A stretch of DNA of 64,000 nucleotides from a virus. The stretch is from the IMG/VR virus record IMGVR_UViG_3300003691_000002, positions 1 through 64,000 of that record, one strand, 5' to 3'. A program made the translations under genes and the position numbers. Numbering within the stretch: the first letter of the stretch is position 1; each line of letters begins with the position of its first letter. The notes beneath the pieces are model-generated. The model did no database searches. It saw nothing but the letters and a program-made list of their open reading frames with translations, and was not told where the DNA came from. Below are positions 3,612 to 59,643 of the stretch, in pieces.

Positions 3612-4310
3612 ATGACACTAAATAAACTAATTTATGACGTAAGAGAGGCTCTGAGTCTTTATACTGATGATACAGAAGTATCAGATAGGTATATTATCTA
3701 TTTATATAATATTATACGTGCTGATTATTTAAGAAAAGATTTAAATAATTACCAACGCTCCTATGATATTTCTATAACTCAGACTTTTTGTGAGTCATTA
3801 GAGTTAGTGTCAGCAAATGAATGTAACGTAGATATAGAGTGTGATCAACTATTAAGAACTAGTAGACCTATACCTACCCCCTTAGAATTGCATACAAAAG
3901 TAGCTCTTAGCAGTGTAAAGCCCACTAATAGACTTGCTATACCTTTTAATTTTATTACTAAAAGGAGAGCTGCTTTTTTGCATGGGGCTAAAATTAAAAA
4001 AGCTTTGTATGCTTTTTTAGATGAAGATGGGTATATCTATGTAACTGCTCCTTCTGGAAATGAGCATAAATTATTGGATTGTTTAACTATAACTGGTGTT
4101 TTTGAAGACCCTTTAGAATTACAAGATTATACAGACTGTTGTGGATGTACTCCAGAAGAAGCTCCTTGTTTTACTTATGATAATACAGATTACCCATTAC
4201 AACCTCATTATGTAAATATTATAAGAGATGAGGTTGTTATGAAACTTGTAAATAAATTTAAACTTCAAGAAGACAAAATTAACGACGATATAAATGATCA
4301 AACGAGGTAA
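3612..4310 (+). CDS. crAss-like structural (ring/neck) protein
   Basis: ITGVFEDP...DYPL pattern typical of crAss ring proteins; conserved position before IHF-like and tail tubular genes. Confidence 0.65.
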   Translation: MTLNKLIYDVREALSLYTDDTEVSDRYIIYLYNIIRADYLRKDLNNYQRSYDISITQTFCESLELVSANECNVDIECDQLLRTSRPIPTPLELHTKVALSSVKPTNRLAIPFNFITKRRAAFLHGAKIKKALYAFLDEDGYIYVTAPSGNEHKLLDCLTITGVFEDPLELQDYTDCCGCTPEEAPCFTYDNTDYPLQPHYVNIIRDEVVMKLVNKFKLQEDKINDDINDQTR

Positions 4311-4797
4311 AAGTAAAATAAAAGTAGATTATGGGATGCCTGATTATTATAAGTTTTATAAAAAAAACTTAGAAAATCCTGTAGATAAACATAAATACAA
4401 ACAAGTCATAGAAGATTTTAATTTAGAATTACAAGACCTTTTGCTTTTTAAAGGAGTAACTTATAAAATGCCTGGTTTAAATTTTGAACTAGTACTTAAA
4501 AAATCAAAAAGAACTTCTAAAGTAAAAGACGGAAAGCTTTATACAAACATCCCTATTAATTGGGTAGCTACTAGAAAAATGTGGGAAGAGCATCCTGAAA
4601 CAAAAAATAATAGGTATGTAAGATACAATAATTCTCATAGTAATAACTATGTATTTAAGATATATTTAAAAAAATTTAAATCTGCTTTTAAATTTAGAAG
4701 CCTTTATAAATTTGATATTGTAAGACAATTTAAAAGAAAAATAGGGAAAGAAATAAAAAATCCTGATAATAATATTGATGCTTATTTACTCTACTAA
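4294..4797 (+). CDS. crAss-like IHF/HU-like DNA-binding protein
   Basis: INWVATRKMW...YNNSHSNNY motif, basic; syntenic position. Confidence 0.65.
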   Translation: MIKRGKSKIKVDYGMPDYYKFYKKNLENPVDKHKYKQVIEDFNLELQDLLLFKGVTYKMPGLNFELVLKKSKRTSKVKDGKLYTNIPINWVATRKMWEEHPETKNNRYVRYNNSHSNNYVFKIYLKKFKSAFKFRSLYKFDIVRQFKRKIGKEIKNPDNNIDAYLLY

Positions 4798-4799
4798 TT

Positions 4800-5615
4800 A
4801 TGTTCAACGGAAAATACATATCATTAAAAGAAATATTATGGCAAGTATATAACTTACCATATACAGAAGAATTAAATTATACAGATGCAGCAGAATATGC
4901 TGTAGATGCTATAAGGTTAATAGGAGCTCCTTTAGCTTATATTGACAAGGTAGAAGCTACTTCATTAGTAGAATATAAAGCAGCTTTGCCTGATAATATT
5001 ATTACTATTAAAGGAGTTAAATTATTAAATGCAGGAGGGCAAGATATTGCTCTTAGAAGAGCCACTGATCTTTATCATCCTTCTATTCCTTGTAATGATT
5101 CTGGTCCTTCTATAAATACAGATACTACAGATTTACCCAATAGTCCTTATGATGAATCAAATCAAGGAGTTAACACTTCAGTTGTAGACACAGAAGCAGG
5201 TACTACTGGAGAAAGAATGAGTGAGTATACTTATATTACTAACGGAGGAGTAATACAAAGCTCTGTAAAAGAAGGAAATATAGAAATAGCTTACCAAGGA
5301 CTTGCTTGTGATACTGAAGGATTTCCTTTAATACCTGATAATATACAGGTAAAAGAAGCTATTAGATATTATATTACTTACAGATATTTAGAACCTTTAT
5401 GGGGTGCAGGAAAAGTAACTGATAAATGGTATAATAATGTAGAGCAAAAAAAATCTTTTTATATGGGCGCTGCAAACACTTCTATGCAGTTGCAAGGTAT
5501 AGATCATTTAGAATCTACTATGAACGCAGTAAATAGACTTATTGTAAATGATAAAGCTTATGATAATTTCTATATTGGGGCAGGACAAAGAGAACGTATT
5601 AAAAGGTATCATTAA
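4800..5615 (+). CDS. Tail tubular/ring protein (P22 gp4-like)
   Basis: IAY...DTEGFPLIPD...EAIRYYI motif; directly upstream of the stabilization protein. Confidence 0.75.
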   Translation: MFNGKYISLKEILWQVYNLPYTEELNYTDAAEYAVDAIRLIGAPLAYIDKVEATSLVEYKAALPDNIITIKGVKLLNAGGQDIALRRATDLYHPSIPCNDSGPSINTDTTDLPNSPYDESNQGVNTSVVDTEAGTTGERMSEYTYITNGGVIQSSVKEGNIEIAYQGLACDTEGFPLIPDNIQVKEAIRYYITYRYLEPLWGAGKVTDKWYNNVEQKKSFYMGAANTSMQLQGIDHLESTMNAVNRLIVNDKAYDNFYIGAGQRERIKRYH

Positions 5616-8600
5616 TGGATAAATCATCTAAATATACATACAGAGGTATAAATCAAGATATATCAAAGGGTAAACATCTACCTGAATATTATTTTGAAGC
5701 CCAACATATTAGGATATTAGCTACTGATACACAATCTTCTTTAGGGGTATCTAATGAAAAAGGAAATGAAGCAGTAATAATTATTCCTTATGTAGATATT
5801 GATACTAATACTAAAGAAATAACTGTTTCAGAAACAGATTTTACAGGAGAAGTAATACAAACACTTTTTTATACTAATTCTGAAATAGATACTCAAATAT
5901 CTAATAGTTTACTTCCCGCTTCTTCTCAAGGGCAAAAGATAATAAGCACTGTAGATACTAGGGAAGGTATTGTTATTTTTACTACAGATGATTTAGGAAT
6001 GGATTGTATATGGTATGTCCCTGCTGTATTGCAAGGAGATTATACCATTAATTTACTATATGTAAGAAATCTTAACTTTAGCAGTAATAACCCAATTCAA
6101 GCTATATTTAATTATGAAAATGATATTATAGAGAAAATATATTGGGTAGATGGCAACAACCAACTTAGATTTCTTAATTTAGACCATAGTATTGCTAATG
6201 GAGATAATGAAGAATTAATTGATATTAATTCTAATACTATAAATTTTGTAGGTAACTTTGATTTGTCTCAGCCTGTTGTAACAGGTGTATTACAAGGAGG
6301 AGGTCATACATCTGGTATGATTCAGTATGCATACAATCTTTATAGACTTAATGCGTCACAAACTACCCTATCCCCTGTTACAGATTTAATACCTTTAGGT
6401 AAAGGAGATAACTTAGGAGGAGGTGATGTAAATGAAGTTGTAGGAGCTACTCCCGTTATTACTATTGATAATATTGACCCTGAATATACTAATATCAGGT
6501 TATATGCAATTAAATACACGTCTTTAAATCAAGACCCTAGTGTTAGTTTATTAGCAGACAGAGAAATAAATTCTTCAAATTCTTTTACTTATTTTGATGA
6601 TGGAACAATAGAACAGACTGTTTCTATTGAAGAACTTCTTTTTTTAGGTAGTAGTCCTATTATACCTCAACATATAGAGACAAAAGATAACATCTTATTT
6701 TCTGCTAATATTAAACAAAACAATTTTGATGTAGATTTAGATTGTAGAGCTTTTAGTTATCTACAAGGAACAAGTACTAGTTATATATTAAATAATATTA
6801 TTCCTGATGACGGCTTTACTTTAAGCATTCCAAATGCTATTACAGGTATAAATGTTCAAGATGCAGGTAGTGATGTAGTACAAGTAGATGGTACCTTTAG
6901 TAATATTCCTGAAGAATTTGATTGTATAAATCCTAACTATGATTTTTATAGATACAAAATTAATAGTAATGAGCAGGGAGGAACAGGTAAATATGTGGAA
7001 TATTCTATTAATCCTTTAAATGTATCTAATTCTTCTAGAAAAAGATTCTTTAAATCTGATGAAATATATAGAATAGGCATTGTATTTTATAACAGATTAG
7101 GTCAAAAAACCTTTCCTAAATGGGTAGCTGATTTAAAAGCTCCCACAAAAAACTTAGAAGGAAGTTATAATATTCTTGAGGTTTCTTTAACTGCAGAATT
7201 TTATACTTGGCTTGCTAATGATGCTAATTTTGAAACTGAAGATGATAGACCTACTGGTTATAAAATTATAAGAGCAGACAGACAGTTTAAAGACAGGACT
7301 GTATTGTATCAAGGTATATTATCTTCTGCTATGTTTCAGGTAAAAGGAGATGCAGCTAAAACTTACGAAGATTATTATACGTTATCTAATAGGCAAGCTG
7401 TTCAAGATGATGCTGTAAAAATGCCTTCTTGGGCTATTAGACCTTTTGAATCTAGGTTATATTTACAACCTGATATTGGCGGAGGCTCTAATGTAACTAG
7501 TGGTAGAGTTATAGAAACATTGCATCTTTCTTGGTTAAATGATGCTTTGGATATAAATGACGCTAATTCTACAGATGGAGGGGAGATTCATACCGCTGTA
7601 CAAAGAGACAATAAAATATCTCAAACTTTTCAGCATACTAAAATGATGCAATTTTTTAGTCCTGAAATTATGTTTGATTTAGCTTCTACTAAAGAAGGGT
7701 TAGAGTTAAAAGTAAATGGGGTATGCGTAACTACTAATGAAGTAGTAAGATCACAAGAAACTTTTATTGCAACATCTTTAAGAAAAAATGGAGGTAAATT
7801 TGAATATTTTCCTACTAGACAAATTATAGATGATTTTAATATAGCAGATACTTTTAATACTCCTGGAGGTAGAAGTCCTCGTTATATAGGTCCTTCTGGC
7901 GCGTCTGATACTGTAGATTTTTATCAATTCTATAGGGAGTTTAATTCCTTTGAAAGAAACACTAATAATAATACTTACCCTATTTATGGAAAACCTGAGC
8001 TTTTAATAGAAGGACAAAAGGAAATTTCTTATAATGGCGACCCTAAATATAAGTTTATTAATAGCTTAGAAATATTTGCATCTGATGGCAATTTAGATGA
8101 TTGTAGTAATGGAGATGTTAACTGTACTCCTATTGTAAGTATAAATTCTTGGGCTAATAAAAGCGCTTTAATAGTATTAGGAGATGCAAATGACACTACT
8201 AATGCAAGAACTAAGTTAGAAGATTTATATACAGATACTAGTAATACAAACCCTAATGGGGTTATTTCGGTAGATGTTATTGTACCTGTGCTGAATGTAT
8301 ATTTTGGAAATATATATGGGGGAAATAGCTTTGAAGATAAAAAACTTAACACTTATTATGAGATAGGTAGTTATACAGACATTCAAACTAATAATGTTTT
8401 TATTGATTCTCCTGGAGATACTTATGTTCAAAACTTCCAATTTTTAAGAATAGGTAAGACAAACACAGAAACATTTGATACAGGTATTCCACAATTTAGT
8501 GAAATTATATCTTTTCCTGTAGAAACAACTGTAGATTTAGAAAATAGAAATGATTTTAGTATATTTGATTGGGATAGTAATTTTCAACCTACTTTTGAGC

Positions 8601-12800: not shown

Positions 12801-13277
12801 GATCGGTATCTTGGTAGTTTTAGTGAAATATATGCTAGAATATTTGGGATAAGAAGAGAGCTTGATATTAAACCAGACGAAGTTGTAACTCCTGAGTTAC
12901 TTCTTAAAAAAGAAAAAGAATATTATAAAAAAAATAATATAGAACCAGACTACCAAGAAATTAAACAAATAATGGAACAGAAATCATTAATTGAATTAAT
13001 GAATTTATTAGTACAGAATGAAAAGCATACATTAAAGCAAAAAGGAATAAGCCCCGCAGCTTATGGGGGTAATGTTTCAAATCAAAGCCCTCAGTTTTAT
13101 AGAGAAACTAATTCTTATGATGAAGGTGGTAGTCATGAATCAAATATTAATGGAGGAATACCAATAGGTACTTCTTCTAATGGTAAACTAAATACAGTGG
13201 AAGAAGGAGAATTTTCTTATAACTTCCCTAAACAAGGAAAATTTATTTTTAGTAATAGAATTAATTATGAAAATTAA
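9807..13277 (+). CDS. Multidomain virion cargo protein: lysozyme-like N-terminus and two zincin-like HExxH domains
   Basis: AFHESAG...GRGVYQFE; VDHEFGH; AAHETAH; C-terminal GGSHESN..GGI crAss motif. ATG 9807 preferred over TTG 9792, which overlaps the promoter. Confidence 0.7.
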   Translation: MQELEFLINQLVKTKGGTPKDYYDLLGSVAFHESAGTMNPSIRQYGGGPGRGVYQFEEGKNAGGITAARRTKRFLQSLGAKVPKWLQEAVKGNSLDATKLKKEQQDVLFLGNMIMHPKADFKKIWNGEETVPEFWANYHWAGSSAQRKKKLESFMTSLERYKEANPDAFNTTFDPEGSGYDYATATKYNIQPDASGHYPSVVPETGQILKGKKHPTYRATAKKEKQLGREIYKGDDNLYYSRKGIGELANTKVKKDNTMVFQPIITNDVMKDLPSTYVPPIDDDLEGLNQFAVGGPVDPPTKKKPPTVVYGTPEYAKAYREGLFAELPNELDEVVINSSVDYKKYPLYDSLSEDEKKYFNDNSPIGRAIRRKAYTKKSLASDAKNIAPQLIEGATEALQIPQSAMVEGIQAVRGKNYNFADALPGSNNQRRPSQFIGYKNPTGILQNVVNFGIDALTDPVDLLGAGYVGDIGKVAKAANKTDLGFARNNPISLLVDSIEKGIYKLDYKDSHPKIKKYFDEQVDFFKSEKGKDRLQGMGIVGDRYTNFIDKLEKLKLTSGPETGSLYSPGFGKMHINMFQDNSRELGDISYKSIVDHEFGHFIQDHKNSQLTGRLAQFPFRTYGDWAMSKIDIKDKTIADVPKILKDPNISFKQFIKESDGYATKRAQPTWADVKLGELKLKKGNKIPSKLEREFSNRAQQHDYFRRGNGKYGTNVDNMTERYPFLREYRQAMVDRKYLKDKWEEITPEKVASFQRVYPKIRLNNIMNNTPANHQLIADLLNYTAGSIPIATQLPKENNKYAEGGSVNSNCGGPGQPPCKENDSLPKYLTPTKKGFKLNPYELPDTNKLEHERKWMLNWLKSPGRNKQFESLSRTQYEEDHPLKNWWYNNVPSEKEKKERILEEYNKEIKNIVLNNVETVKYKGGVDVPGNTYMSSAIGAYSPLGHYIYFPYWLEDPENTDKGAAAHETAHASRIDKFKGSKDILTNVLKNDKKYKNLNDRYLGSFSEIYARIFGIRRELDIKPDEVVTPELLLKKEKEYYKKNNIEPDYQEIKQIMEQKSLIELMNLLVQNEKHTLKQKGISPAAYGGNVSNQSPQFYRETNSYDEGGSHESNINGGIPIGTSSNGKLNTVEEGEFSYNFPKQGKFIFSNRINYEN

Positions 13278-15303
13278 CAAAGACATAAACAGCAGACTTA
13301 ACAAAATGTTAGGTATACCTAAATGGGTACAAGCCGCTACACCTGCTGAAGAAGCTAAAAAAATAGAAAGAAAGTTTAAGGATAGAAAAACTCCTGAAGC
13401 TATGAGAACCAAGGAAGATCTTTTGTCTAAAGTAGCGGAAAAACAAGAGATGGTTAAACAAATGATGGAGCCTGAAACTCCTGCAGTTCCTTTAGATCAA
13501 ATGCCTAACCAAATGGCAAATGGAGGCGCTATTGCAGATACTTTAACTCAAACAGGGCTTGGAGTAGCTGGTACTGTTATAGGGGGACCAATTGGAGGAA
13601 TGATAGGAGGAGCTTTAGGGCAAATTGCAGGACCTATGGTTGGGGGGTTATTTGGACAAAACCAAGTAAACGAAGATATTAATAATAATGCTTTGGCTAC
13701 TAATATGTCTCAAATGGCATATGGAGGTATGACAGACCCTATAGGAAAGAAAACTAAAACAAAACCACCTACTAAAATAAATCCTTATGATGCATTAGAA
13801 GCGTCTATGACAGGTATACAACAACCTAATCTTAATTTAGGTCCATATGCAACTGCAGGATATTTAGATGTACAAAATCAAGGTACTAATTATATAGTTA
13901 GTCCTACAGGTAAAAATCCTCAAAACTATCAAGGATTTCAGCAGCAATTAAAAACCTTGCAAAAGCTTAACCCTAATGCTATTATAGAACCAAACTATTT
14001 ACAATTCCAAAATAGAATGGGTTATGGAGGAAAAACTAATAGTTATCCTGATGGAGGCTTTCCTAATATTATGCCTTATATAAATAACCTTGCAAAATTT
14101 CAAGGAGATCCTTCTTATCCACCTTCTGTTTATTCTAATCAAGAGATGAGGGGTATTCAATTACCCAAAGTTCCGAGAGTAACTATGGATACTGGAGCTG
14201 GTATTCCACCTTCTGTATTCTCTACATTTGAAATAGGGGATGGATTAAATCTTACCCCACCTCCAGCTTATCCTGAGATAACTCCTAACGCTTTTAGTCC
14301 TCAAGGAGTAAGCTTAAAAAACCGTTTTGCTGGTACTCCTTCTGTAGTAGGACAAATGGAAAGAGATGGTTGGAGAGGTAACCCTATAGTAGACACAGGT
14401 GCATCAATGCCTCCAGGAGTATTTTCTAAACAAGAAGGATCTTTATTACCAAGACAAAACTTTATAAGGCCAGGGATTAAACCACCAGTAGTAAGTCAAG
14501 GAAAAACCAATACAAATATTTCTTCTGCACCTATTGCTCCTTCTACTCCTGTTCCTACTGTAAAAAGAGAAAATACTCCTAATTTAATTAATTATGCAGG
14601 TACTATGCCTGCTGCTACAATGTCTTCTTTAAAAGGAACTACAATGCCGCAATCTGTTGGTGATGAAGCAAAGAAAAATGCTCCAGGTATGAAAAAATCT
14701 AATTCTTCTGGATTAGGAGAAGTTATGCCTTATTTAGCACAAGCAGGAAGACTTGCTCCTTTACTTGGTAATTTATTTAATCCAATTAAACAAGCCCCTC
14801 CTGTTAGAAGAGAAAGAATAATTGGAAATAATAATTTAGGTAGAATAGATCAAAACTTTATTGTTAATCAAGCGAATCAAGCTACTGCTAATGCTGCTAA
14901 TATGATGAGAGCTAACTCTGGTGGAGATAGTGCAAGACTTTATAGTGGATTAGTAGGAGCTACTAGAGCAGGTGCCGCAGGAGCTTCTTCAGGTGCGTAT
15001 CAAGCTCAAGCAGGTAATATAGATCTAAATCTTAAAGAAAATCAGTTAAATCAAAGACAAGCTTTATCAAATCAAGCAATGGGTAATTATGATACTATTG
15101 ATAATATGGCTAACTTTGGAAACACTCAATCTTTAAGACAAGCAAAGCTTAACGCTATTTTAAATTCTATTGGTTCTTTAGGAAAAGAAACTTCTGATAA
15201 AGAACTAGTAAAAGAAATTTACGGATATACCTGGGATGGTAAATTTGTAAGAGATAAGCAAGGTAATATTGTAGCTATGTTTGGAAGTTATTTAAATAAA
15301 TAA
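13267..15303 (+). CDS. Low-complexity virion cargo/ejection protein
   Basis: G/P/N/Q/A-rich, glycine-zipper TM-like segment, MAxGG repeats, no Cys. Confidence 0.65.
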   Translation: MKINKDINSRLNKMLGIPKWVQAATPAEEAKKIERKFKDRKTPEAMRTKEDLLSKVAEKQEMVKQMMEPETPAVPLDQMPNQMANGGAIADTLTQTGLGVAGTVIGGPIGGMIGGALGQIAGPMVGGLFGQNQVNEDINNNALATNMSQMAYGGMTDPIGKKTKTKPPTKINPYDALEASMTGIQQPNLNLGPYATAGYLDVQNQGTNYIVSPTGKNPQNYQGFQQQLKTLQKLNPNAIIEPNYLQFQNRMGYGGKTNSYPDGGFPNIMPYINNLAKFQGDPSYPPSVYSNQEMRGIQLPKVPRVTMDTGAGIPPSVFSTFEIGDGLNLTPPPAYPEITPNAFSPQGVSLKNRFAGTPSVVGQMERDGWRGNPIVDTGASMPPGVFSKQEGSLLPRQNFIRPGIKPPVVSQGKTNTNISSAPIAPSTPVPTVKRENTPNLINYAGTMPAATMSSLKGTTMPQSVGDEAKKNAPGMKKSNSSGLGEVMPYLAQAGRLAPLLGNLFNPIKQAPPVRRERIIGNNNLGRIDQNFIVNQANQATANAANMMRANSGGDSARLYSGLVGATRAGAAGASSGAYQAQAGNIDLNLKENQLNQRQALSNQAMGNYDTIDNMANFGNTQSLRQAKLNAILNSIGSLGKETSDKELVKEIYGYTWDGKFVRDKQGNIVAMFGSYLNK

Positions 15304-15305
15304 TT

Positions 15306-17246
15306 ATGATTGCAAATAGATATACTCAAGCAGAATTTCCAGAATATAATCCTTATTCTTTGCAGGAGCTTATGATGGCGCCTGCTTATAAAAGAGAAAA
15401 ACACGATGCTATTAATGCTGGGATATCTGAGTTAGAAACACAGCTTGCTCAGATTGATTCATTACCTGAAATGACTCCTGCTTTAGAAGAAGAAAGAAAT
15501 AGACTTTATAATGAATTAGAAGGTCTTTCTACACAACTTGCACAAGAAGGATTTAACCAAGCTTCTAAGAGTGATTTTTTAAAGTTTAATAAAGATTATC
15601 AACTAGCTTTAGGTCCTACGGGCAGAGTTGGCCAGATTGCTAATGCTAAAGCACAGTATGATATAGAAAGAGCAAACTTGTTAGAAAATGCTGTTAATAT
15701 GGGCTTTAGTCCAGAAGGAGCTATGAATATGTTTAACCAAGGATATCAAGATTATATAAAAAAATTTAATGAAACAGGTGTTATAGATCCTTTCTTTGCT
15801 CCTACTCCTCCTCAGTTTCATTCTATTGAACAAGATCTTGCTACTCTTAGTAATTTGATGACTTCAAATGTAAAAGATAATTTTCAAGATGGTTCTTATA
15901 AAATTAAAGGTACACCAGAAGGGTTATATGTTATAGATTCAAGAACAGGTAATAGAGTAGAAGAAGAAAATGCCAAACAAATAGAGCAACAACTAAATTT
16001 CTTACAAAACAAATGGCTTAAAGAAGGGGGAGCTGGATATAAAACTCTTAATTGGCATAACCTTTCACCAGAAGTAGCAGAGCAAATGATTCAGGCAGGT
16101 GTAGGAATGCAAGCATTTAGTAAAGTTCAGGATGCTCAAAAACAAGATTTTAGAGTAATAGCCCCTTCTTCAAGTAGCAGAAAAGGTCTAACAGGAGTTG
16201 GGTTTATTAATAATTTAGTCCAAGGATTAGATTCAAAATTTGTAGATGGTAATTCTCCTTTATTAAATACTAAGGCTTATTCTGAAGCTGAATATACTCC
16301 TGAAGGAAACTTAATAGAATCAGGAAAATTCGATACTTACCAAGAAAAAGTTAATTGGTACAAAGAAAATGGATATGAAATATCTCAAAAAGAAGGCGAA
16401 TTAGCTGTTGCAACTATAAGAGATGATGGTAGGTTAGCTTTATCTATGGGTACAGGTTTAGGACCTACTGGTTTCTCTCAGCAAAATACTATAGTTATTC
16501 AAAAAGATGGTAATCATTTAAAAGAAGATTTAAATAAAATGAGAGCTGAAAATCCTCAATTGGCTAATCTAAATGATCAAGAGCTAGTAGAGAGATTACA
16601 AAACTTCCAAATAAAGTTTGAAAAAGCTTACTCTGGCTCTACTATCCCTATTGGAGCTGATTTTGAATGGATGAATGATCAAATTTTTGGTAATCAAGCA
16701 GGTGGAGGAGAAAAAAGTATAGGTAGAATCTTTAATAAAGGAGTTCTATATAATGGAGAAGAGTTGCCGATGGATTTGGTATTAGACGAACTTGGGTATG
16801 ATTCAGATGAATATAATGATTTCTTAGAGCAAGGTAAGCCTACATTAAAAGGATATATGCCTGCTCTTGGTAAATGGCTTGCTACTGCATTAAATGCTGA
16901 TGGTGAACCTGTTAATTTCTTTGTAGAAGCTCCAGAAAATATATCTATACTTACACAAGATAGTCAAAATATTACTAATGCTATTATGGCAGGACAAGCT
17001 TTTGCTAAATTAGGACCTGCTTTTAATCCTCAAGGTCAACAAATAGGGTTTAAATATCTTGTTAATGATTATGATAATCCTCAAATAGTCTTGTCTACTT
17101 TTAATGTAGATAATATATCTGAACTTCTTACTAATCCAATTGTAGGGCAAGTTGGTTATGAAAAACATATGAGAGATGAATTAACTAATTTAAATGCTAA
17201 TTTAAATTATTTGAACATGTCTGGTATTGATAAAACTACTAATTAA
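15306..17246 (+). CDS. Virion cargo/ejection protein
   Basis: MIANRY...YNPYSLQEL N-terminus typical of crAss cargo genes; coiled coil; position before giant genes. Confidence 0.65.
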   Translation: MIANRYTQAEFPEYNPYSLQELMMAPAYKREKHDAINAGISELETQLAQIDSLPEMTPALEEERNRLYNELEGLSTQLAQEGFNQASKSDFLKFNKDYQLALGPTGRVGQIANAKAQYDIERANLLENAVNMGFSPEGAMNMFNQGYQDYIKKFNETGVIDPFFAPTPPQFHSIEQDLATLSNLMTSNVKDNFQDGSYKIKGTPEGLYVIDSRTGNRVEEENAKQIEQQLNFLQNKWLKEGGAGYKTLNWHNLSPEVAEQMIQAGVGMQAFSKVQDAQKQDFRVIAPSSSSRKGLTGVGFINNLVQGLDSKFVDGNSPLLNTKAYSEAEYTPEGNLIESGKFDTYQEKVNWYKENGYEISQKEGELAVATIRDDGRLALSMGTGLGPTGFSQQNTIVIQKDGNHLKEDLNKMRAENPQLANLNDQELVERLQNFQIKFEKAYSGSTIPIGADFEWMNDQIFGNQAGGGEKSIGRIFNKGVLYNGEELPMDLVLDELGYDSDEYNDFLEQGKPTLKGYMPALGKWLATALNADGEPVNFFVEAPENISILTQDSQNITNAIMAGQAFAKLGPAFNPQGQQIGFKYLVNDYDNPQIVLSTFNVDNISELLTNPIVGQVGYEKHMRDELTNLNANLNYLNMSGIDKTTN

Positions 17247-37613: not shown

Positions 37614-38813
37614 TTATTTTTTAATGTGATTTATACATTCTTTTAGGTTATTAAAATAAAACATTTTTAAATTTGAAATATTACTAAAAATTTTATTAAA
37701 CCAAACTTCTTCTTGGGTATTTTTAGTTACAAATATAAAAACTCTTCCTATTTTATTATTCTTTCTTAATCTTCCGATTCTTTGAATAAAATCTTTATCT
37801 GTACTATAATAAGACATTATAATACAATTATCAACATTATTAAGATTTGCTCCTTGTTTTAATTTTTTAAAACTTCCTATAACATTTGTAATTCCTTTTT
37901 CAAAGTTATCTCTTATTGCTGTATTTTCTGCATCAGTGTTACGAGAGCTTACAACATTATTTGTAACTTTATATAAGGAGTCTAAAGAATTACTAAATAT
38001 TATAGTTTTACTTTTTAAATGTTTTAAAATTTCTTTTGTTGCAGCTATTTTTGAAGGTAAATTATATAATATATTACTTCTTTTATGAGAAGTTATTCTT
38101 ATTTTTAATTTTTTAGTTTCTTCGTCAGAAATAAACCACGCTGTTTTATGTTGTTTATCCCAATATGAGTATGCTGCATCTTCAGTTTGATAGAATCTTT
38201 TCTTTTTATTACCTGCTTCTATAGTTTTATTTTTGTTATCTAATTCATGATTTATAACAAAAATTTCTAATTCTCTGGTTGTACCATCTTTTTGACCGTC
38301 TTTAACAGTATATTTAAAACAAATAGGAGCTATTTTATTTAATAAATCTCCTTTAGTATAAGATACAATTTCTGTTTCATATAAAGTTTTAGTATTAATA
38401 GTAGCAGATAATCCTATAATTGCATCATATTTATTATTAAAATAAAATTTAGAATATGCAGGAGTTAAAGAATCATGTATTTCATCAGCAATTACTAATC
38501 CAATATCATTTCTTCCCTTCCATTTATAAACTGTTTGATAACAATAAAAATGTAAATTATAGTCTTCTAAAACATTTTTATCAAAAAGCTTGTTAAACTT
38601 ATCAATATCATTTTTTAAATCTTTAATTCTATCTGTTGCTTCTGCTAAAAATAAATGTATTTTACCATCATTTTTAGGCATTGTATATAAAGCATGTAAA
38701 GATATAAAAGTTTTTCCTAAACCAGTTATGATTTCACAAGTACCTTTTTTATCTTTTTCGATCCATTTATGTAAAGCTTCTGTTTGAATTTTATTTCTAA
38801 CAGAGTCTAACAT
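37614..38813 (-). CDS. Superfamily 2 (DExH) helicase
   Basis: TGLGKT, DEIH, SAT and QRIGR motifs. Confidence 0.92.
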   Translation of the reverse strand: MLDSVRNKIQTEALHKWIEKDKKGTCEIITGLGKTFISLHALYTMPKNDGKIHLFLAEATDRIKDLKNDIDKFNKLFDKNVLEDYNLHFYCYQTVYKWKGRNDIGLVIADEIHDSLTPAYSKFYFNNKYDAIIGLSATINTKTLYETEIVSYTKGDLLNKIAPICFKYTVKDGQKDGTTRELEIFVINHELDNKNKTIEAGNKKKRFYQTEDAAYSYWDKQHKTAWFISDEETKKLKIRITSHKRSNILYNLPSKIAATKEILKHLKSKTIIFSNSLDSLYKVTNNVVSSRNTDAENTAIRDNFEKGITNVIGSFKKLKQGANLNNVDNCIIMSYYSTDKDFIQRIGRLRKNNKIGRVFIFVTKNTQEEVWFNKIFSNISNLKMFYFNNLKECINHIKK

Positions 38814-56366: not shown

Positions 56367-57305
56367 TTAATTATTAATTTGTTTTAAAGAAGTATATACT
56401 TTTTGCATATTTGTTATATCATCTGGTTTAGGTAATTCTTTAAAAAAATTAACTGCACCATCAAAAAACAAAGGAGCAACAGTACCTCCTCCTCCACTTC
56501 TACCTCCCAAAATTTCTAAAAATCTGATATGATCTCTAAAAGCTTTAATATCATACCCCATATATTCTGGAAGTTCATGTCTAAAGGGACTAAATAATCC
56601 CATAATTAAATCAGCATCACGTTGAGTTAATTTACAATCACCTAATCCATTCAAGGTAGGTTTAAGTTTATTAGCTTTAGCGTGTTCAAGAGATTCTTGA
56701 GAAGCTGCTTGTTGTTGAATAACAACAGGTATATAATTATATTTATTTCTAAGTAAAATCAAATAATCAGAAGATAATTTTGTAATAGCTTGGTGTAAAC
56801 TTGTATTATTTTCAGGAGTAATAAGTCCAACATGATCTATTATTATCATAACATATTCATCTGGATTATTAGGCTGATAATAATCATCTATCTCTATTTT
56901 TTGTGTTTTACCTGTTTTGGGATCAGTAATCTCAATTTCTTTTTTATGTTGAGTACCATTAGCTTGCGCGTATTCTCTTAGTATTTTATAAATTCCAAAA
57001 GGATTTCTAATGTTATCTATAAAAGTTACTAATTCTTCTATTTTTTCAAAATAAGGTTTGTATTCCTCTATTTTTTTTAAAATTTCTGGTGACAATATTT
57101 TACTACTTTTAGTACTTCTAAGATCACTAGGAGCCACTCTAATGCCTTCTTTTAAATATAATATATTAGAAAAAGCAGAGAGCATTTTTTGTTCTTTAGA
57201 CATTTCTAAACTAAAATAAAATATTTTTAATTTTATGTTTAGATTTTCATCAATTACTTTGCGAATAGGATTATAAACAAATAACCAATCAGTTATTTGC
57301 GTTTT
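56367..57305 (-). CDS. dnaB: Replicative DnaB-like helicase, exon 2
   Basis: Starts KTQITDWLF (second half of Walker A); FSLEM, IIDH, VIQQQ and RDAD motifs. Confidence 0.9.
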   Translation of the reverse strand, partial: KTQITDWLFVYNPIRKVIDENLNIKLKIFYFSLEMSKEQKMLSAFSNILYLKEGIRVAPSDLRSTKSSKILSPEILKKIEEYKPYFEKIEELVTFIDNIRNPFGIYKILREYAQANGTQHKKEIEITDPKTGKTQKIEIDDYYQPNNPDEYVMIIIDHVGLITPENNTSLHQAITKLSSDYLILLRNKYNYIPVVIQQQAASQESLEHAKANKLKPTLNGLGDCKLTQRDADLIMGLFSPFRHELPEYMGYDIKAFRDHIRFLEILGGRSGGGGTVAPLFFDGAVNFFKELPKPDDITNMQKVYTSLKQINN

Positions 57306-57382
57306 CAATTTGTTACTAAAAAAGAAAATTCTTTTTCGATTAGGCCATTTCTGCCTAATTCTATAATTTAATATATAAAAAA

Positions 57383-58129
57383 TTATTCTACTAATATTAC
57401 TTCCTCATAAACAACTGAATCAAATACTACTGCATTTGAAAAATCTAATTCACTTTTATTAATAATCCAAACTTTAATATTGTTACTAGATTTTACATTA
57501 TGGGTTGTGTGAGTTAAAACTGAAGGATAATTAGATAAAACAGTATCAATAATACCATATCTAAGTTGAGCTTTTACTTCTGGTATTTCTTCCTCTTCTG
57601 CATCATTAAATTTATTATTTTCATCTGCTATATTAGTAGATAATAAAAAAAGAGTATTATCCATTTCTTCCATAACAGTGTTTATAGTAGATGCAAAAAT
57701 AGCTTCTGTAACAATATTTTTATCTTTTACTAAATTGTTATAAGTTAAAAATTCATCAAATACTTTATTATTTAGTAAAGAAGAAATAAAAGGATTAATT
57801 CCATAAATTTCTAAAATAGCACAACTAATAGGAGATTGTGTGTAAGAAAAGTTATCAAAAATATTTTTTAAAGTAAATATTTTTCCTTCATTATATATTA
57901 AAGATAAATCTGTATTTTTTTGATGTAATTTTAACTTATTAATATCAAATTTTTCTTCTTCTTGTTTAACAATTTGGAAAAGTGATTTACTATATTGTTG
58001 AAGAAGATTTAAATCATTTATAATTTCATATTTATCTTCTGTTTCATTTTCAACATTATAGATTTTATTAACAGATATTCTAAAATTTTTAGAATTTGTA
58101 CATCTAATTTGTGTTGTCTTGAGATTCAT
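57383..58129 (-). CDS. Intron-nested hypothetical protein (P9 loop)
   Basis: 248-aa ORF bounded by the P9 strands; no homing endonuclease motif. Confidence 0.8.
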   Translation of the reverse strand: MNLKTTQIRCTNSKNFRISVNKIYNVENETEDKYEIINDLNLLQQYSKSLFQIVKQEEEKFDINKLKLHQKNTDLSLIYNEGKIFTLKNIFDNFSYTQSPISCAILEIYGINPFISSLLNNKVFDEFLTYNNLVKDKNIVTEAIFASTINTVMEEMDNTLFLLSTNIADENNKFNDAEEEEIPEVKAQLRYGIIDTVLSNYPSVLTHTTHNVKSSNNIKVWIINKSELDFSNAVVFDSVVYEEVILVE

Positions 58130-58285
58130 TTTTATAATTTTTTATATTTTATATTTATAGTTCGGACTGTCTCATCAACCTAATTACAACATTTTTTACA
58201 TTGTAATGCTTGATGTAATAAATAATCAGGTACATAAAATATATTTGTACAATTATTATTACAACATTCTTTTGGTTTTTTTACA

Positions 58286-58720
58286 TTATAATCCATATTT
58301 TTTTAATTTTTCATCAAGTAATGGTTTTTCTTCATCTGGTAAAGAATCCCAATATTCCATTAAAATAAAATATACTTTTTTATAATCAGGTTGTTCCTTG
58401 TCAGTCTCTACACCGTTTTGTAAAATTAATTCAATTTCATACAAAGTATTTATAGATGTTCTTTTTCCATTTTGATAATCTATACATAATTGTTTAATTT
58501 TATCAAGTGACGGCACGGGATTGTCTTCAACTAATAAATTGTAATCTGGTTTATTATACCAATCTTCTCTATATTTAGTTTTTTCTTTTTCAATTTCTTG
58601 AACTTTTTCATCTACTAATTGTTTAAGAAGTTCTATTTCATTTTTATGAAAAATTAGATTAAAATTTAATTTATATTGAATATTTTGTAAATCTACATAA
58701 TTTATTGGTATTTTTTTCAT
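58286..58720 (-). CDS. Intron-nested hypothetical protein overlapping the ribozyme core
   Basis: 144-aa open frame running through Q (EDNPVP) and R/P8 (NGVETDKEQPDY). Confidence 0.7.
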   Translation of the reverse strand: MKKIPINYVDLQNIQYKLNFNLIFHKNEIELLKQLVDEKVQEIEKEKTKYREDWYNKPDYNLLVEDNPVPSLDKIKQLCIDYQNGKRTSINTLYEIELILQNGVETDKEQPDYKKVYFILMEYWDSLPDEEKPLLDEKLKKYGL

Positions 58721-58758
58721 TGATTACATTTTATAATATTAAAGATTTTCCCCGTTTG

Positions 58759-59043
58759 CTAAAATTTTTCTTGCACAAATTTTAAAAACTCTGCAATAAT
58801 TTTATCAGGATTTTCATTTTTATAAATTTGGCAAAATTGGCGTGCTAACTCTAATAATGATTCATAGTAATCATCTTGAATTAACTGAATGTTCCTAATT
58901 TCTATTAAATTAGGAAATTTAACAGGAAGTTTTCTTTGTAGACTATTAACATTGTCTACTCTTACAAATTTTGTTATGATTTTCTCATCAAAAATTGTAT
59001 CATCATCTGTTTCTACAAGTAATTCAAGAAAGTATGTTTTCAT
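58759..59043 (-). CDS. Intron-nested hypothetical protein
   Basis: 94-aa ORF, ATGA-coupled to the upstream ORF; stop lies 2 nt before the P element. Confidence 0.7.
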   Translation of the reverse strand: MKTYFLELLVETDDDTIFDEKIITKFVRVDNVNSLQRKLPVKFPNLIEIRNIQLIQDDYYESLLELARQFCQIYKNENPDKIIAEFLKFVQEKF

Positions 59044-59423
59044 TTTCTTTTACGAGAATAAATTATTGAAGAGTCAGGTAATAAAATATAATCTTTGCCT
59101 CTAAAAGCATATCTAAGAATATCTTTTGGATTTTTCTCTATACTTTTTCCTACTACTCTATTATTTATATCCATTAAATAAATACTTCTTGTATTATTTC
59201 TTTTATTAATATTGATAGTAGGAGTAAGTAAATTTAATTTTGCTTTTTTAGAAATTCTTTTAGATAAAACTTTAATAGTTTTATAAATAACATCTTTAAG
59301 AACTATATTTTCTCCAGTAATTTCTTTTAAAGCGTGTAAATTAAATCCTTCTTCTTCGGGAAAAAATTCATTTATTACCTCTAATACAATTAATTCTTTT
59401 TCATTTTTTGTATCTACATTCAT
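59040..59423 (-). CDS. Intron-nested hypothetical protein
   Basis: 127-aa ORF starting just after the P3 5' strand. Confidence 0.7.
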   Translation of the reverse strand: MNVDTKNEKELIVLEVINEFFPEEEGFNLHALKEITGENIVLKDVIYKTIKVLSKRISKKAKLNLLTPTININKRNNTRSIYLMDINNRVVGKSIEKNPKDILRYAFRGKDYILLPDSSIIYSRKRK

Positions 59424-59478
59424 TTTAACTTAATTCGGAATTTGCTGTAAATGTTACCACTTACAGGGGCAAAACTTT

Positions 59479-59643
59479 ACCCACTTTCGTATTCGCAGTT
59501 AGTAAATAATATTTACCTTGTTCAATACCTGGATTTTCATTTTCAAAACGAGGTAATCCCCAAGGAATACAATTCACATGACCGTCAAGGATTCTGTCTC
59601 TACGATCATTTATATCTTTTAAAACTCTATTATATAAGCTCAT
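59479..59643 (-). CDS. dnaB: Replicative DnaB-like helicase, exon 1 (55 codons)
   Basis: NCIPWGLPRF...PGIEQGKYYLLTANTKVG, the crAss DnaB N-terminus up to the Walker A glycine. Confidence 0.9.

What the first reader, a model, noticed from the sequence alone, without database searches (positions are those of the whole stretch)
57306..59478. Group I intron in dnaB carrying four ordinary genes and no recognisable homing endonuclease
Seen: dnaB stops at ...ANTKVG and resumes 2173 nt later at KTQITD; joining GGT(59479) to AAA(57305) restores Walker A and a 367-aa helicase. The group I elements occur in order on the minus strand: P1 GGGU/GCCC with U.G wobble, P2 CUGUAAGUG-GUAA-CAUUUACAG, P4 ACGGGG/UCCCGU, P5 UCUUUAA/UUGAAGA, P7 GACUG/CAGUC, a 13-bp P8, P9, terminal G, and P10 GUUUU/AAAAC. 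Established: the P and Q sequences are near-identical to those of the T4 td intron, and phage group I introns normally carry at most one ORF, a homing endonuclease. Here four ORFs (127, 94, 144 and 248 aa) without HNH, GIY-YIG or LAGLIDADG motifs spread the core over about 2.1 kb. Inference: a domesticated intron acting as a gene container or nested operon, whose excised RNA could itself be a polycistronic mRNA. Caveat: P3 is only 4 bp by eye (UUCC/GGAA).
Basis: partly seen in the sequence, partly recalled or inferred. Interest (0 to 1): 0.93.

Follow-up and report, generated by a model that had tools for sequence, protein, structure and literature searches.

The report
Gene-laden group I intron in helicase
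The replicative helicase gene of this marine crAss-like phage is cut inside its ATP-binding loop by a T4 td-like self-splicing-type (group I) intron whose RNA loops hold four to five genes that are not recognisable homing endonucleases, a layout shared by many related phages.

Summary
dnaB (minus strand) is split exactly inside Walker A (..ANTKVG | KTQITD..) by 2173 nt (57306-59478). An uninterrupted relative reads straight across the junction.

The insert has every group I element in order. Across 11-17 distinct relatives, P2, P3, P5, P7 and P8 pair far better than shuffled or slid controls, with many compensatory changes. P and Q are identical to the real T4 td sequence over 10 and 14 nt.

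Against this, Rfam's Intron_gpI model finds nothing here or in compact relatives, while T4 td and nrdB reach only 40 and 36 bits. No RNA evidence of splicing could be obtained.

The same intron sits at the same codon in cultured Cellulophaga phage phi14:2, where DnaB is annotated as a truncated gene. It also occurs in about 15 metagenomic phages, with 2-6 ORFs in four loop positions.

The cargo has no nuclease family. ORF1 and ORF2 are orphans. ORF4 belongs to a family of 946 clusters that also occurs free-standing. ORF3 is read through the catalytic core in 23 of 23 variants.

The "gene container" reading is partly supported. "Domesticated" and "polycistronic mRNA" are untested. This scan has found the same intron family before on other DNA.

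The parts
59479..59643 (-). dnaB exon 1 (55 codons, ends ..ANTKVG; last 4 nt GGGU form the P1 5' strand)
57306..59478 (-). group I-type intron, 2173 nt
56367..57305 (-). dnaB exon 2 (312 codons plus stop; DnaB_C, Pfam E 2.2e-08); the first 5 nt AAAAC form the P10 partner
59467..59475 (-). internal guide sequence GUUUUGCCC (P10 strand 59471-59475, P1 strand 59467-59470)
   Evidence: P10 covaries: GAUUU/AAAUC in phi14:2 and L067
59445..59466 (-). P2 hairpin, 9 bp plus GUAA loop; the in-frame stop TAA of the exon-1 frame lies in its 5' strand
   Evidence: 116/144 paired, 0/2000 shuffles
59437..59440 (-). P3 5' strand UUCC
58394..58397 (-). P3 3' strand GGAA
   Evidence: 43/44 paired
59422..59429 (-). 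5' strand GUUAAAAU of the helix closing the ORF1-ORF2 insert between P3 and P4 (overlaps the ORF1 AUG)
   Evidence: phi14:2 has UUAAUCAA/UUGAUUAA at the same place
58758..58765 (-). 3' strand AUUUUAGC of that helix (contains the ORF2 stop UAG)
59040..59423 (-). ORF1, 127 aa, orphan
58759..59043 (-). ORF2, 94 aa, orphan
58750..58755 (-). P4 5' strand ACGGGG (P element, AAACGGGGAA identical to T4 td)
58739..58745 (-). P5 5' strand UCUUUAA
58286..58720 (-). ORF3, 144 aa; starts in L5 and is read through P5', P4', P6, L6, P7, P3' and P8 5'
   Evidence: 23/23 variants in frame and open
58524..58530 (-). P5 3' strand UUGAAGA
   Evidence: 61/72 paired
58515..58520 (-). P4 3' strand UCCCGU (Q element, AGACAAUCCCGUGC identical to T4 td)
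58510..58513 (-). P6 5' strand CCGU
   Evidence: position worked out
58413..58416 (-). P6 3' strand ACGG
58402..58408 (-). P7 5' strand GAGACUG (bulged A; R element)
58382..58393 (-). P8 5' strand CAACCUGAUUAU
   Evidence: basal 6 bp: 101/102 paired, 7 combinations
58180..58296 (-). 38-aa Cys-rich ORF in the P8 loop; it ends on the UAG of the P8 3' strand, where ORF3 ends in 13 of 23 relatives
58176..58187 (-). P8 3' strand GUAAUUAGGUUG
58164..58169 (-). P7 3' strand CAGUCC (S element)
   Evidence: 85/85 paired; G-C and A-U coupled
58155..58160 (-). P9 5' strand CUAUAA
57383..58129 (-). ORF4, 248 aa, in the P9 loop; weak DUF6501-like N-terminus; family of 946 clusters
57361..57366 (-). P9 3' strand UUAUAG
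   Evidence: L072 has CUACAA/UUGUAG
57340..57358 (-). P9.1 hairpin UUAGGC-AGAAAUG-GCCUAA (conserved CAGAAAUG loop, stems covary)
57319..57336 (-). P9.2 hairpin (holds an ORF in L061 and others)
57306..57317 (-). conserved 3' end AGUAACAAAUUG with terminal G at 57306

Best explanation
This is a genuine group I intron related to the phage T4 td intron, inherited in a lineage of marine crAss-like phages (Crassvirales, near Cellulophaga phage phi14:2). It must be spliced out of the dnaB transcript to join ..ANTKVG to KTQITD.. and restore the Walker A loop of the only DnaB-type helicase seen here.

Mechanism (inferred from the anatomy). The guide sequence GUUUUGCCC pairs with the last exon-1 bases (GGGU, with U.G at the splice site) and later with the first exon-2 bases (AAAAC, P10). 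P3-P8 and P4-P6 form the core. P7 (GAGACUG/CAGUCC with a bulged A) gives the guanosine pocket. The terminal G at 57306 serves the second step.

The ribozyme is only about 350-400 nt. The rest is coding sequence extruded from helices that tolerate inserts:
- ORF1 and ORF2 sit in a helix inserted between P3 and J3/4.
- ORF4 sits in the P9 loop.
- ORF3 starts in L5 and is read straight through P5'-P4'-P6-P7-P3' into the P8 loop, where a 38-aa Cys-rich ORF follows.

Start and stop codons lie in or next to helix strands, and ORF3 covers the core. On any one RNA molecule, translation of the cargo and folding of the ribozyme should therefore exclude each other.

The cargo is most likely a set of accessory phage genes of unknown function that use the intron loops as tolerated insertion sites and are transcribed with the early replication genes. 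They are probably not the intron's homing machinery.
For: Shown by sequence:
- The split lies inside Walker A, and an uninterrupted relative reads through it.
- An in-frame stop follows 5 codons after the 5' splice site.
- All helices occur in the canonical order.
- The P and Q elements are identical to T4 td.

Shown by comparison:
- The same interruption at the same codon occurs in cultured phage phi14:2 and in about 15 further loci.
- Covariation is strong. P3 has 8 strand combinations, 43/44 cells paired. P7 G-C and A-U are perfectly coupled, 85/85. P8 has 7 combinations, 101/102. P2 is 116/144 and P5 61/72. All five give 0/2000 shuffles, and slid controls give 0.01-0.67.
- P9 and P9.1 stems covary around a conserved CAGAAAUG loop.
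- P10 changes with the exon: GUUUU/AAAAC here, GAUUU/AAAUC in phi14:2 and L067.
- In relatives the ORFs sit in different loops, while the short form of each loop exists elsewhere (L014, L048 and L061 have 70-71 nt between guide and P4; L067 and L069 have 48-56 nt of L5).
- On the DnaB tree the intron marks two clades, 12 of 14 rows and 4 of 4 rows.

Cargo:
- No nuclease family in Pfam, PHROGs, NCBIfam or PADLOC.
- The ORF4 family has 946 clusters at E<=1e-3. None of its 13 invariant residues is Glu or His, and only one is Asp.
- Free-standing homologues exist in L017 (colinear E-x-D-E block, 62/38/35% identity to the L019 cargo) and in L080/L081.

phi14:2 is a cultured phage with the same split dnaB, which argues (by inference) that the arrangement works.
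Against: - Rfam's Intron_gpI covariance model gives no match in the window at E<=10, none at gathering score in 13 related loci, and none at E<=1 in six relatives with compact loops. T4 td and nrdB give 40.3 and 35.7 bits (E 9e-08 and 2e-06, both under the gathering score of 50).
- No RNA evidence exists.
- The covariation counts use related sequences, so shuffles overstate significance. P4 is invariant and P6 nearly so.
- An insert between P3 and J3/4 and a 4-nt J7/3 without P7.1/P7.2 are unusual for subgroup IA (recalled).
- A 2.2-kb intron with four large loops may need help to fold.
- Nothing shows that any cargo ORF is translated.
- ORF1 and ORF2 have no relatives at all, so no comparison can show them to be under selection.
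Confidence: 0.85

Rival explanations
1. The intron is real, but one or more cargo ORFs (ORF4, or the universal ORF3 with its Cys-rich tail) are a new family of homing endonucleases or other selfish mobility proteins, and the remaining ORFs are hitch-hikers. The crowding would then reflect repeated invasion of loops by selfish genes rather than use of the intron as a gene platform.
For: - The ORFs occupy the loops where endonuclease genes usually sit.
- The intron is polymorphic inside a clade: L015 and L017 lack it.
- The same intron splits an SF2 helicase gene in L072.
- Classical endonuclease genes do enter this system: LAGLIDADG in L014 (E 3e-34), with an ORF of the same size at the same place in L047, and GIY-YIG in a twin intron in L007.
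- ORF4-like and 'E' family genes are patchy and multi-copy.
- Free-standing copies fit free-standing endonucleases as well.
- ORF3 is the only ORF present in all 23 variants.
Against: - No match to any nuclease family in four libraries, nor to any solved structure by sequence.
- The invariant residues of the ORF4 family (C, Y, N, D, Y, F, S, C, S, T, N, S, I) hold no acidic or histidine cluster.
- The conserved ORF3 motifs (DNPVPSL, NGVET) are simply the Q and R ribozyme elements read as codons.
Confidence: 0.3
2. dnaB is a dead gene broken by an inserted gene cassette. The phage would rely on another helicase, and the group I-like motifs would be relics or chance.
For: No splicing evidence exists. 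Rfam's model does not recognise the insert. The window encodes another helicase (SF2, 37614-38813).
Against: - Both exons are intact and conserved in every interrupted locus, with no stops. The exon-2 proteins build a well-supported tree.
- The break is at the same codon in two DnaB clades.
- The helices covary, which relics or chance would not give.
- P10 tracks the exon sequence.
Confidence: 0.04
3. The insert is a twintron or a nest of several introns, each contributing one ORF.
For: Relatives L007, L008, L010, L016 and L047 carry a second, different group I-like core (R GGUUCAGAGACUAG, S AAGAUAUAGUCC) a few nt upstream of this intron. L007 was scanned and has a GIY-YIG gene there; L008 and L016 have look-alike ORFs.
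Against: The window holds exactly one set of P, Q, R and S elements and no twin-type R or S. The helices that close the ORF-bearing loops are simple stems, and their short hairpin forms exist in relatives.
Confidence: 0.03

Closest known systems
Phage T4 td intron (group I, subgroup IA2) with I-TevI
   Same: - Identical P (AAACGGGGAA) and Q (AGACAAUCCCGUGC) elements.
- The same 9-bp P2 with a GNRA loop, and P8 directly after P3'.
- In relatives, the same P9 hairpin ..AUGGUGACAU...
- It sits in an essential DNA-metabolism gene of a lytic phage.
- An in-frame stop lies just inside the intron.
- An ORF reaches into core helices (I-TevI contributes 20 nt to P6a, P6.0 and P7; passage read in PMC3073962).
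   Different: - td is 1017 nt with one GIY-YIG gene in P6. This intron is 2173 nt with 4-5 ORFs of no nuclease family in three further places.
- An ORF-bearing helix is inserted between P3 and J3/4.
- J7/3 is 4 nt, with no P7.1/P7.2 (their position is recalled).
- One ORF covers the whole stretch P5'-P8.
- td reaches 40 bits with Rfam RF00028; this intron reaches none.
Group I introns whose endonuclease ORF overlaps the core ("core creep"), e.g. the Bacillus thuringiensis nrdF intron (56 nt over P6a/P7/P7.1/7.1a)
   Same: Coding sequence doubles as ribozyme helices (Table 1 and text passages of PMC3073962; Fig. 2 legend of PMC3984707).
   Different: In those cases one end of a recognised endonuclease gene overlaps the core by 9-56 nt. 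Here a small non-endonuclease ORF runs through P5', P4', P6, P7, P3' and P8 in 23 of 23 variants, and the Q-to-R spacing is always a multiple of 3.
[quoted passage not shown] 2021, PMC7886860)
   Same: Same phage order. [quoted passage not shown]
   Different: They were found through endonuclease or maturase domains in human-gut genomes. A DnaB intron, phi14:2 and multi-gene non-endonuclease cargo are not mentioned in the passages I read. The paper's Supplementary Fig. 12 could not be opened.
   Same: A host-useful gene is housed in a group I intron beside, or instead of, an endonuclease gene.
   Different: Those are organellar, with one or two ORFs. This is a phage intron with up to six ORFs spread over four loops.

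Membership tests
Group I intron (self-splicing ribozyme) | P1 formed by the 5' exon end and an internal guide, with U.G at the splice site | tested here: met
   GGGU|..GCCC. The same holds in phi14:2 and 10 or more relatives.
Group I intron (self-splicing ribozyme) | Core helices P3-P8 in the canonical order, including the P3/P7 pseudoknot, supported by covariation | tested here: met
   Order shown. P3 43/44, P5 61/72, P7 85/85 and P8 101/102 paired, 0/2000 shuffles each. Slid controls are 0.01-0.67. P4 is invariant and P6 nearly so.
Group I intron (self-splicing ribozyme) | Guanosine-binding P7 with a bulged nucleotide next to a G-C pair (consensus recalled) | tested here: met
   GAGACUG/CAGUCC with a bulged A in 17 distinct sequences.
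Group I intron (self-splicing ribozyme) | Terminal G, and P10 between the guide and the 3' exon | tested here: met
   ..AAAUUG| with G at 57306, and GUUUU/AAAAC. phi14:2 and L067 have GAUUU/AAAUC. P10 is only 2-4 bp in several relatives.
Group I intron (self-splicing ribozyme) | Match to the Rfam RF00028 covariance model | tested here: not met
   No hit at E<=10 in the window, at gathering score in 13 loci, or at E<=1 in 6 compact relatives. Control: T4 td 40.3 bits and nrdB 35.7 bits, both under the gathering score of 50.
Group I intron (self-splicing ribozyme) | GTP-dependent self-splicing, or ligated exons in RNA | not testable with these tools
Subgroup IA2 (T4 td type) | td-like P, Q, P2 and P9 | tested here: met
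Subgroup IA2 (T4 td type) | P7.1/P7.2 between P7 and P3' (recalled as the mark of subgroup IA) | tested here: not met
   Only ACAA lies between P7 and P3' in the window and in most relatives. L014, L047 and L076 have an insert there; in L014 and L047 it holds an ORF that Pfam calls LAGLIDADG in L014.
Homing endonucleases (LAGLIDADG, GIY-YIG, HNH, PD-(D/E)XK, EDxHD) for ORF1-ORF4 | Match to a family profile or its catalytic motif | tested here: not met
   Pfam, PHROGs, NCBIfam and PADLOC give no nuclease family. The ORF4 profile finds no PDB chain. Controls in relatives score clearly: LAGLIDADG 3e-34 and GIY-YIG 4e-10.
Homing endonucleases for ORF1-ORF4 | Nuclease fold | not testable with these tools
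The Atlas's own model of ORF4 is poor (pLDDT 0.40).
DnaB-type replicative helicase (host gene) | DnaB_C domain and an intact Walker A after joining | tested here: met
   Pfam DnaB_C E 2.2e-08 on exon 2. The alignment with cr108_1 gives A-x4-GKT across the junction.

The most novel reading that the evidence does not exclude
In a lineage of marine Crassvirales a td-type group I intron has become a long-lived, heritable platform for accessory genes. Genes would move between free-standing positions beside dnaB and the intron's loops, as suggested by L017 against L016/L019. Up to six genes would ride in one ribozyme. A small protein overprinted on the catalytic core (open in 23 of 23 variants) would couple translation to splicing, so that the decision between making helicase and making cargo is taken on each transcript.
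Probability: 0.35. Interest if true: 0.85.

Novelty: new variant of a known kind. Interest (0 to 1): 0.72.

Why it matters
By the text-book picture (recalled), phage group I introns carry either no ORF or one homing-endonuclease gene. Here the ribozyme is a thin scaffold, roughly a sixth of the element, around four to five genes of no known family. The same design recurs in about 15 related phages, with 2-6 ORFs each.

If the intron splices, three things follow:
- A small ribozyme core can assemble across kilobase-sized loops in vivo.
- Intron loops are a way for compact phage genomes to gain genes without breaking operons.
- A protein can be encoded through P4-P8 of an active ribozyme.

It also has a practical side. 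The DnaB of the cultured Cellulophaga phage phi14:2 is annotated as a truncated 280-aa protein with five "hypothetical" genes before it; these are exon 1 (g024) and the intron cargo (g025-g028). Endonuclease-based intron searches in Crassvirales would miss this family. phi14:2 and its host offer a system in which all of this can be tested.

Tried and rejected
1. Rfam searches: no Intron_gpI match. I keep this as evidence against membership by that model. I do not treat it as decisive, because the T4 td and nrdB controls also stay under the gathering score.

2. RNA evidence: the look-up of sequencing runs gave one metatranscriptome run with 5% of the words. That is too small a share to mean anything.

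3. ORF identity, all without a usable result:
- Word-index searches for ORF4, ORF1 and ORF2 found only the window's own proteins.
- PDB sequence searches with the ORF4 and 'E' family profiles found nothing significant.
- Atlas look-ups gave scores of 0.79 and TM below 0.4, which are leads only.
- Pfam gave only weak DUF6501 matches to the N-terminus of ORF4 and its L004 homologue (E 5e-4 and 1.5e-4, under the cut-off).

4. Local profile searches of ORF1 and ORF2 against 60 ORF families from the fetched loci gave under 10 bits. They are orphans.

5. I tested whether cargo family 'A' (not in the window) shares a fold with ORF4. hhalign probability was 0.1%, so I rejected the idea. Its hits to designed armadillo proteins were not followed.

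6. A paralogue of ORF4 in the phage's own 88,690-nt record: none at E<=10.

7. Other introns of this type in the window: none.

8. Bacteroidetes-type TAnnTTTG promoter motifs before the cargo ORFs: the only two lie inside ORF4.

9. Of the 34 stretches from the core-pattern scan, about ten are chance matches or another intron type in unrelated GC-richer contigs (L049, L051, L053-L055, L062, L065, L066, L068, L077). They were dropped from all counts. Duplicate contigs (L060=L004, L073=L008, L074=L058, L013=L010, L063=L003) were counted once.

10. L016 and L019 have a variant Q element and a splice site 4 nt upstream, so the script did not parse them. L019 enters P2 and P3.

11. Literature: searches found no description of a DnaB intron in phi14:2 or of multi-gene phage group I introns. 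I read passages of PMC7886860, PMC3984707, PMC10136315 and PMC3073962 only. Supplements were closed.

Full report
WHAT IS THERE

The window is part of an 88,690-nt virus record with about 24% G+C around the finding. Its nearest named relatives are Cellulophaga phage phi14:2 and crAss-like phage cr108_1, both Crassvirales, Steigviridae.

On the minus strand a 60-codon ORF (59461-59643) reads ..YYLLTANTKVG and then KVLPL-stop. A 313-codon frame (56367-57308) carries a DnaB_C domain (Pfam E 2.2e-08) and begins, after one extra codon, KTQITD. The uninterrupted cr108_1 helicase reads ..ANSKIGKTQIAD.. across this point. The break therefore lies inside the Walker A loop, and joining 59479 to 57305 gives 55 + 312 = 367 residues. 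Between the exons lie 2173 nt with ORFs of 127, 94, 144 and 248 aa and a further 38-aa Cys-rich ORF.

THE RIBOZYME

- P1 GGGU/GCCC with U.G.
- P2, 9 bp with a GUAA loop.
- P3 UUCC/GGAA.
- P4 ACGGGG/UCCCGU.
- P5 UCUUUAA/UUGAAGA.
- P6 CCGU/ACGG.
- P7 GAGACUG/CAGUCC with a bulged A.
- P8 CAACCUGAUUAU/GUAAUUAGGUUG.
- P9 CUAUAA/UUAUAG, then P9.1 and P9.2.
- The conserved end AGUAACAAAUUG with a terminal G.
- P10 GUUUU/AAAAC.

I fetched the real T4 td intron. Its Q element AGACAAUCCCGUGC (14/14) and P element AAACGGGGAA (10/10) are identical to the window's. The design of P2 and, in relatives, of P9 (..AUGGUGACAU..) is the same.

RELATIVES

A search with exon 2 gave 43 loci. With three annotated stretches of the two named phages, 46 loci were checked with both exons: 28 are uninterrupted at this point, 11 are interrupted there, and 7 do not reach exon 1. 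A scan for the Q..R core gave 34 stretches, of which about ten are chance matches or another intron type in unrelated contigs. The rest added six more complete dnaB introns and copies in other genes.

phi14:2 is the key case. Its g024 is exon 1 (..ANSKVG). Exon 2 begins 2616 nt later (KSQITD). Its annotated "DnaB" (g029) is a truncated piece, and g025-g028 are intron cargo.

COVARIATION

Using anchors in the conserved elements, I counted pairs over distinct sequences:
- P2: 116/144 cells paired (n=16).
- P3: 43/44 (n=11; CUCA/UGAG, CUCA/UGGG, UUCC/GGAA, UUCA/UGAA, CUCU/GGAG, CUCC/GGAG and CUCG/CGAG pair fully; UUCA/GGAA has one mismatch).
- P5: 61/72 (n=12).
- P7: 85/85 (n=17; GACUG/CAGUC or GACUA/UAGUC, never mixed).
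- P8: 101/102 (n=17; 7 combinations).

In each of these, 0 of 2000 shuffles reached the observed value. P6 gives 16/20 (141/2000), and P4 never varies. Sliding the 3' partner by 1-3 nt lowers pairing to 0.01-0.67. P9 appears either as a closed hairpin (CUAUAUGGUGACAUAUAG; CUACAUGGUGACAUGUAG in L061) or as CUAUAA...UUAUAG around an ORF (CUACAA/UUGUAG in L072). The P9.1 stems differ in nearly every sequence around a fixed CAGAAAUG loop. P10 follows the exon: GUUUU/AAAAC here, GAUUU/AAAUC in phi14:2 and L067. These sequences are related, so the shuffle numbers are not probabilities. The number of independent compensatory types is nevertheless hard to explain without the structure.

EVIDENCE AGAINST

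Rfam's Intron_gpI model finds nothing in the window at E<=10, nothing at gathering score in 13 related loci, and nothing at E<=1 in six relatives with the most compact loops. The controls T4 td and nrdB score 40.3 and 35.7 bits, below the gathering score of 50. The model is thus weak on this subgroup, but it does see them and does not see this family.

Two features are also unusual for subgroup IA (recalled knowledge): one or two helices inserted between P3 and J3/4, and no P7.1/P7.2 (only ACAA lies between P7 and P3').

No RNA evidence could be had.

WHERE THE GENES SIT

- ORF1 and ORF2 lie in a loop closed by GUUAAAAU/AUUUUAGC. This stem overlaps the ORF1 AUG and holds the ORF2 UAG. phi14:2 has UUAAUCAA/UUGAUUAA at the same place, while L014, L048 and L061 have only 70-71 nt there.
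- ORF3 starts in L5 and runs through P5', P4', P6, L6, P7, P3' and the P8 5' strand.
- ORF4 fills the P9 loop.

In 15 parsed relatives the td-like intron holds 2 (L061, 1157 nt) to 6 (L004, 3574 nt) ORFs of at least 60 aa. They are spread over the P3-P4 insert, L5, the core and P8, and the P9 extensions.

THE CORE ORF

In 23 of 23 distinct core variants the distance from Q to R is a multiple of 3 (108-138 nt) and the frame stays open through R. In 13 of 23 the ORF ends on the UAG of the P8 3' strand. Its conserved motifs DNPVPSL and NGVET are the Q and R elements read as codons, so they say nothing about protein function. The frame conservation, however, indicates that it is translated.

In the window ORF3 stops earlier. 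The Cys-rich tail seen in relatives is a separate 38-aa ORF in another frame, ending on that same UAG. Partial overlap of endonuclease ORFs with the core ("core creep", 9-56 nt) is known (passages of PMC3073962; figure legend of PMC3984707). An ORF across P5'-P8 goes well beyond the cases listed there.

WHAT THE CARGO IS

None of the four ORFs matches a nuclease or any other family above threshold in Pfam, PHROGs, NCBIfam or PADLOC. By contrast, a LAGLIDADG gene in L014 and a GIY-YIG gene in the twin intron of L007 score 3e-34 and 4e-10.

ORF1 and ORF2 have no relatives in 5.8 billion proteins by word search, in the fetched loci, or among local family profiles.

ORF4 belongs to a family found in ten intron-bearing loci. 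A profile of it finds 946 clusters at E<=1e-3 and 392 at E<=1e-10 among 1.84 billion representatives. Its invariant residues (C10, Y24, N38, D39, Y46, F51, S102, C103, S164, T165, N166, S214, I218) include no acidic or histidine cluster. Only its N-terminus weakly resembles DUF6501.

ARE THEY ORDINARY GENES?

In L080 and L081, which are unrelated AT-rich phage contigs, an ORF4-like gene lies in a tight gene array with no ribozyme motifs nearby.

L017 is more telling. Its dnaB is intact, and it falls inside the intron-bearing clade next to L016. Between the replisome organiser and dnaB it has free-standing genes E(141 aa)-x(131)-D(215)-E(155). These are colinear with the intron cargo E2-[core]-D-E3 of L019, at 62, 38 and 35% identity, and no P, Q, R or S element is present. 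In the window the replisome-organiser gene abuts dnaB exon 1 directly. So the same genes can live inside or outside the intron. I cannot tell which state came first.

MOBILITY AND HISTORY

On a DnaB (exon 2) tree of 32 rows, the intron marks the window's clade (12 of 14 rows, support 99/99) and the phi14:2 clade (4 of 4). The intron-less L015 and L017 are nested inside the first clade, and at least 3-4 gains or losses are needed.

The same intron, with ORF3 and an ORF4-like gene, splits an SF2 helicase gene in L072 whose window homologue (37614-38813) is intact. Five relatives also have a second, different group I-like core a few nt upstream; Pfam finds a GIY-YIG gene there in L007, and L008 and L016 have look-alike ORFs.

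The family is therefore old and mostly inherited vertically, but not frozen.

READING

Most likely (0.85) this is a working td-related group I intron whose peripheral loops have filled with accessory genes. Splicing is needed to make DnaB. The layout of starts, stops and the core ORF implies that translation of the cargo and folding of the ribozyme exclude each other on one RNA, the principle described for I-TevI (PMC3073962, passages) in an extreme form.

Whether the cargo is useful to the phage, selfish, or both is open; I give the "new endonuclease or selfish genes" rival 0.3. "Domesticated" and "polycistronic mRNA" are not tested.

PRIOR WORK

Yutin et al. [quoted passage not shown] My three literature searches found no description of this DnaB intron, of the phi14:2 case, or of multi-gene phage group I introns. 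Supplements were closed.

This scan has met the same intron family in at least seven other genomes, and their follow-up agents reached the same verdict. I tested the claims independently here.

Noticed in passing
L003 (NC_021806.1) 3983-7708; record 12982-16707: In Cellulophaga phage phi14:2 the annotated DnaB (g029, 280 aa) is only part of exon 2. g024 is exon 1 plus a short read-through, and g025-g028 are intron cargo. The record already joins its PolB from two pieces but not DnaB.
   Followed up: yes
L017 3456-5754 (IMGVR_UViG_3300020045_005261): This intron-less relative carries homologues of the L016/L019 intron cargo, in the same order, as free-standing genes directly upstream of an intact dnaB. 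No ribozyme motifs are present. The direction of the change is unknown.
   Followed up: partly
L072 6877-10068: The same intron family (core, ORF3-like and ORF4-like genes) splits an SF2 helicase gene (ResIII/Helicase_C) after about residue 110. The window's homologue at 37614-38813 is intact.
   Followed up: partly
L007, L008, L010/L013, L016, L047: first 0.5-1.2 kb after dnaB exon 1: A second, different group I-like core (R GGUUCAGAGACUAG, S AAGAUAUAGUCC) lies a few nt upstream of the td-like intron (twin introns in Walker A). L007 has a GIY-YIG/NUMOD gene there by Pfam; L008 and L016 have look-alike ORFs, some preceded by a TAnnTTTG promoter-like motif.
   Followed up: partly
L014 4804-5427; L047 (same place in the intron): A LAGLIDADG gene (Pfam 3e-34 in L014) sits between P7 and P3', the position where subgroup IA introns have P7.1/P7.2 (recalled). 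L047 has an ORF of the same size at the same place, which was not scanned.
   Followed up: partly
window 58180-58296 (-): A 38-aa Cys-rich ORF in the P8 loop overlaps the end of ORF3 in another frame and ends on the UAG of the P8 3' strand. It corresponds to the Cys-rich C-terminal tails of ORF3 in relatives, so ORF3 looks split here by a frame change within a run of A.
   Followed up: partly
L061 9765-10142 (-): A tmRNA gene (Rfam RF00023, 58.2 bits, E 5e-20) lies on this crAss-like phage contig, near its dnaB region.
   Followed up: no
L005 4279-4602 and homologues (alignment A3): Cargo family 'A' (about 105 aa, CCALCQL..GNGQTAVF..) matches designed armadillo-repeat proteins in the PDB by sequence (best E 1.8e-12). 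This may be a real Arm-like repeat or a consensus-like artefact.
   Followed up: no
L065 and L068: A compact, GC-richer group I-like core shares the P and Q elements (UAGCUAACGGGGAAGCC .. AAUCCCGUGG, 42 nt apart) but not the rest of this family. L065 and L068 gave no Rfam match at the gathering score.
   Followed up: no
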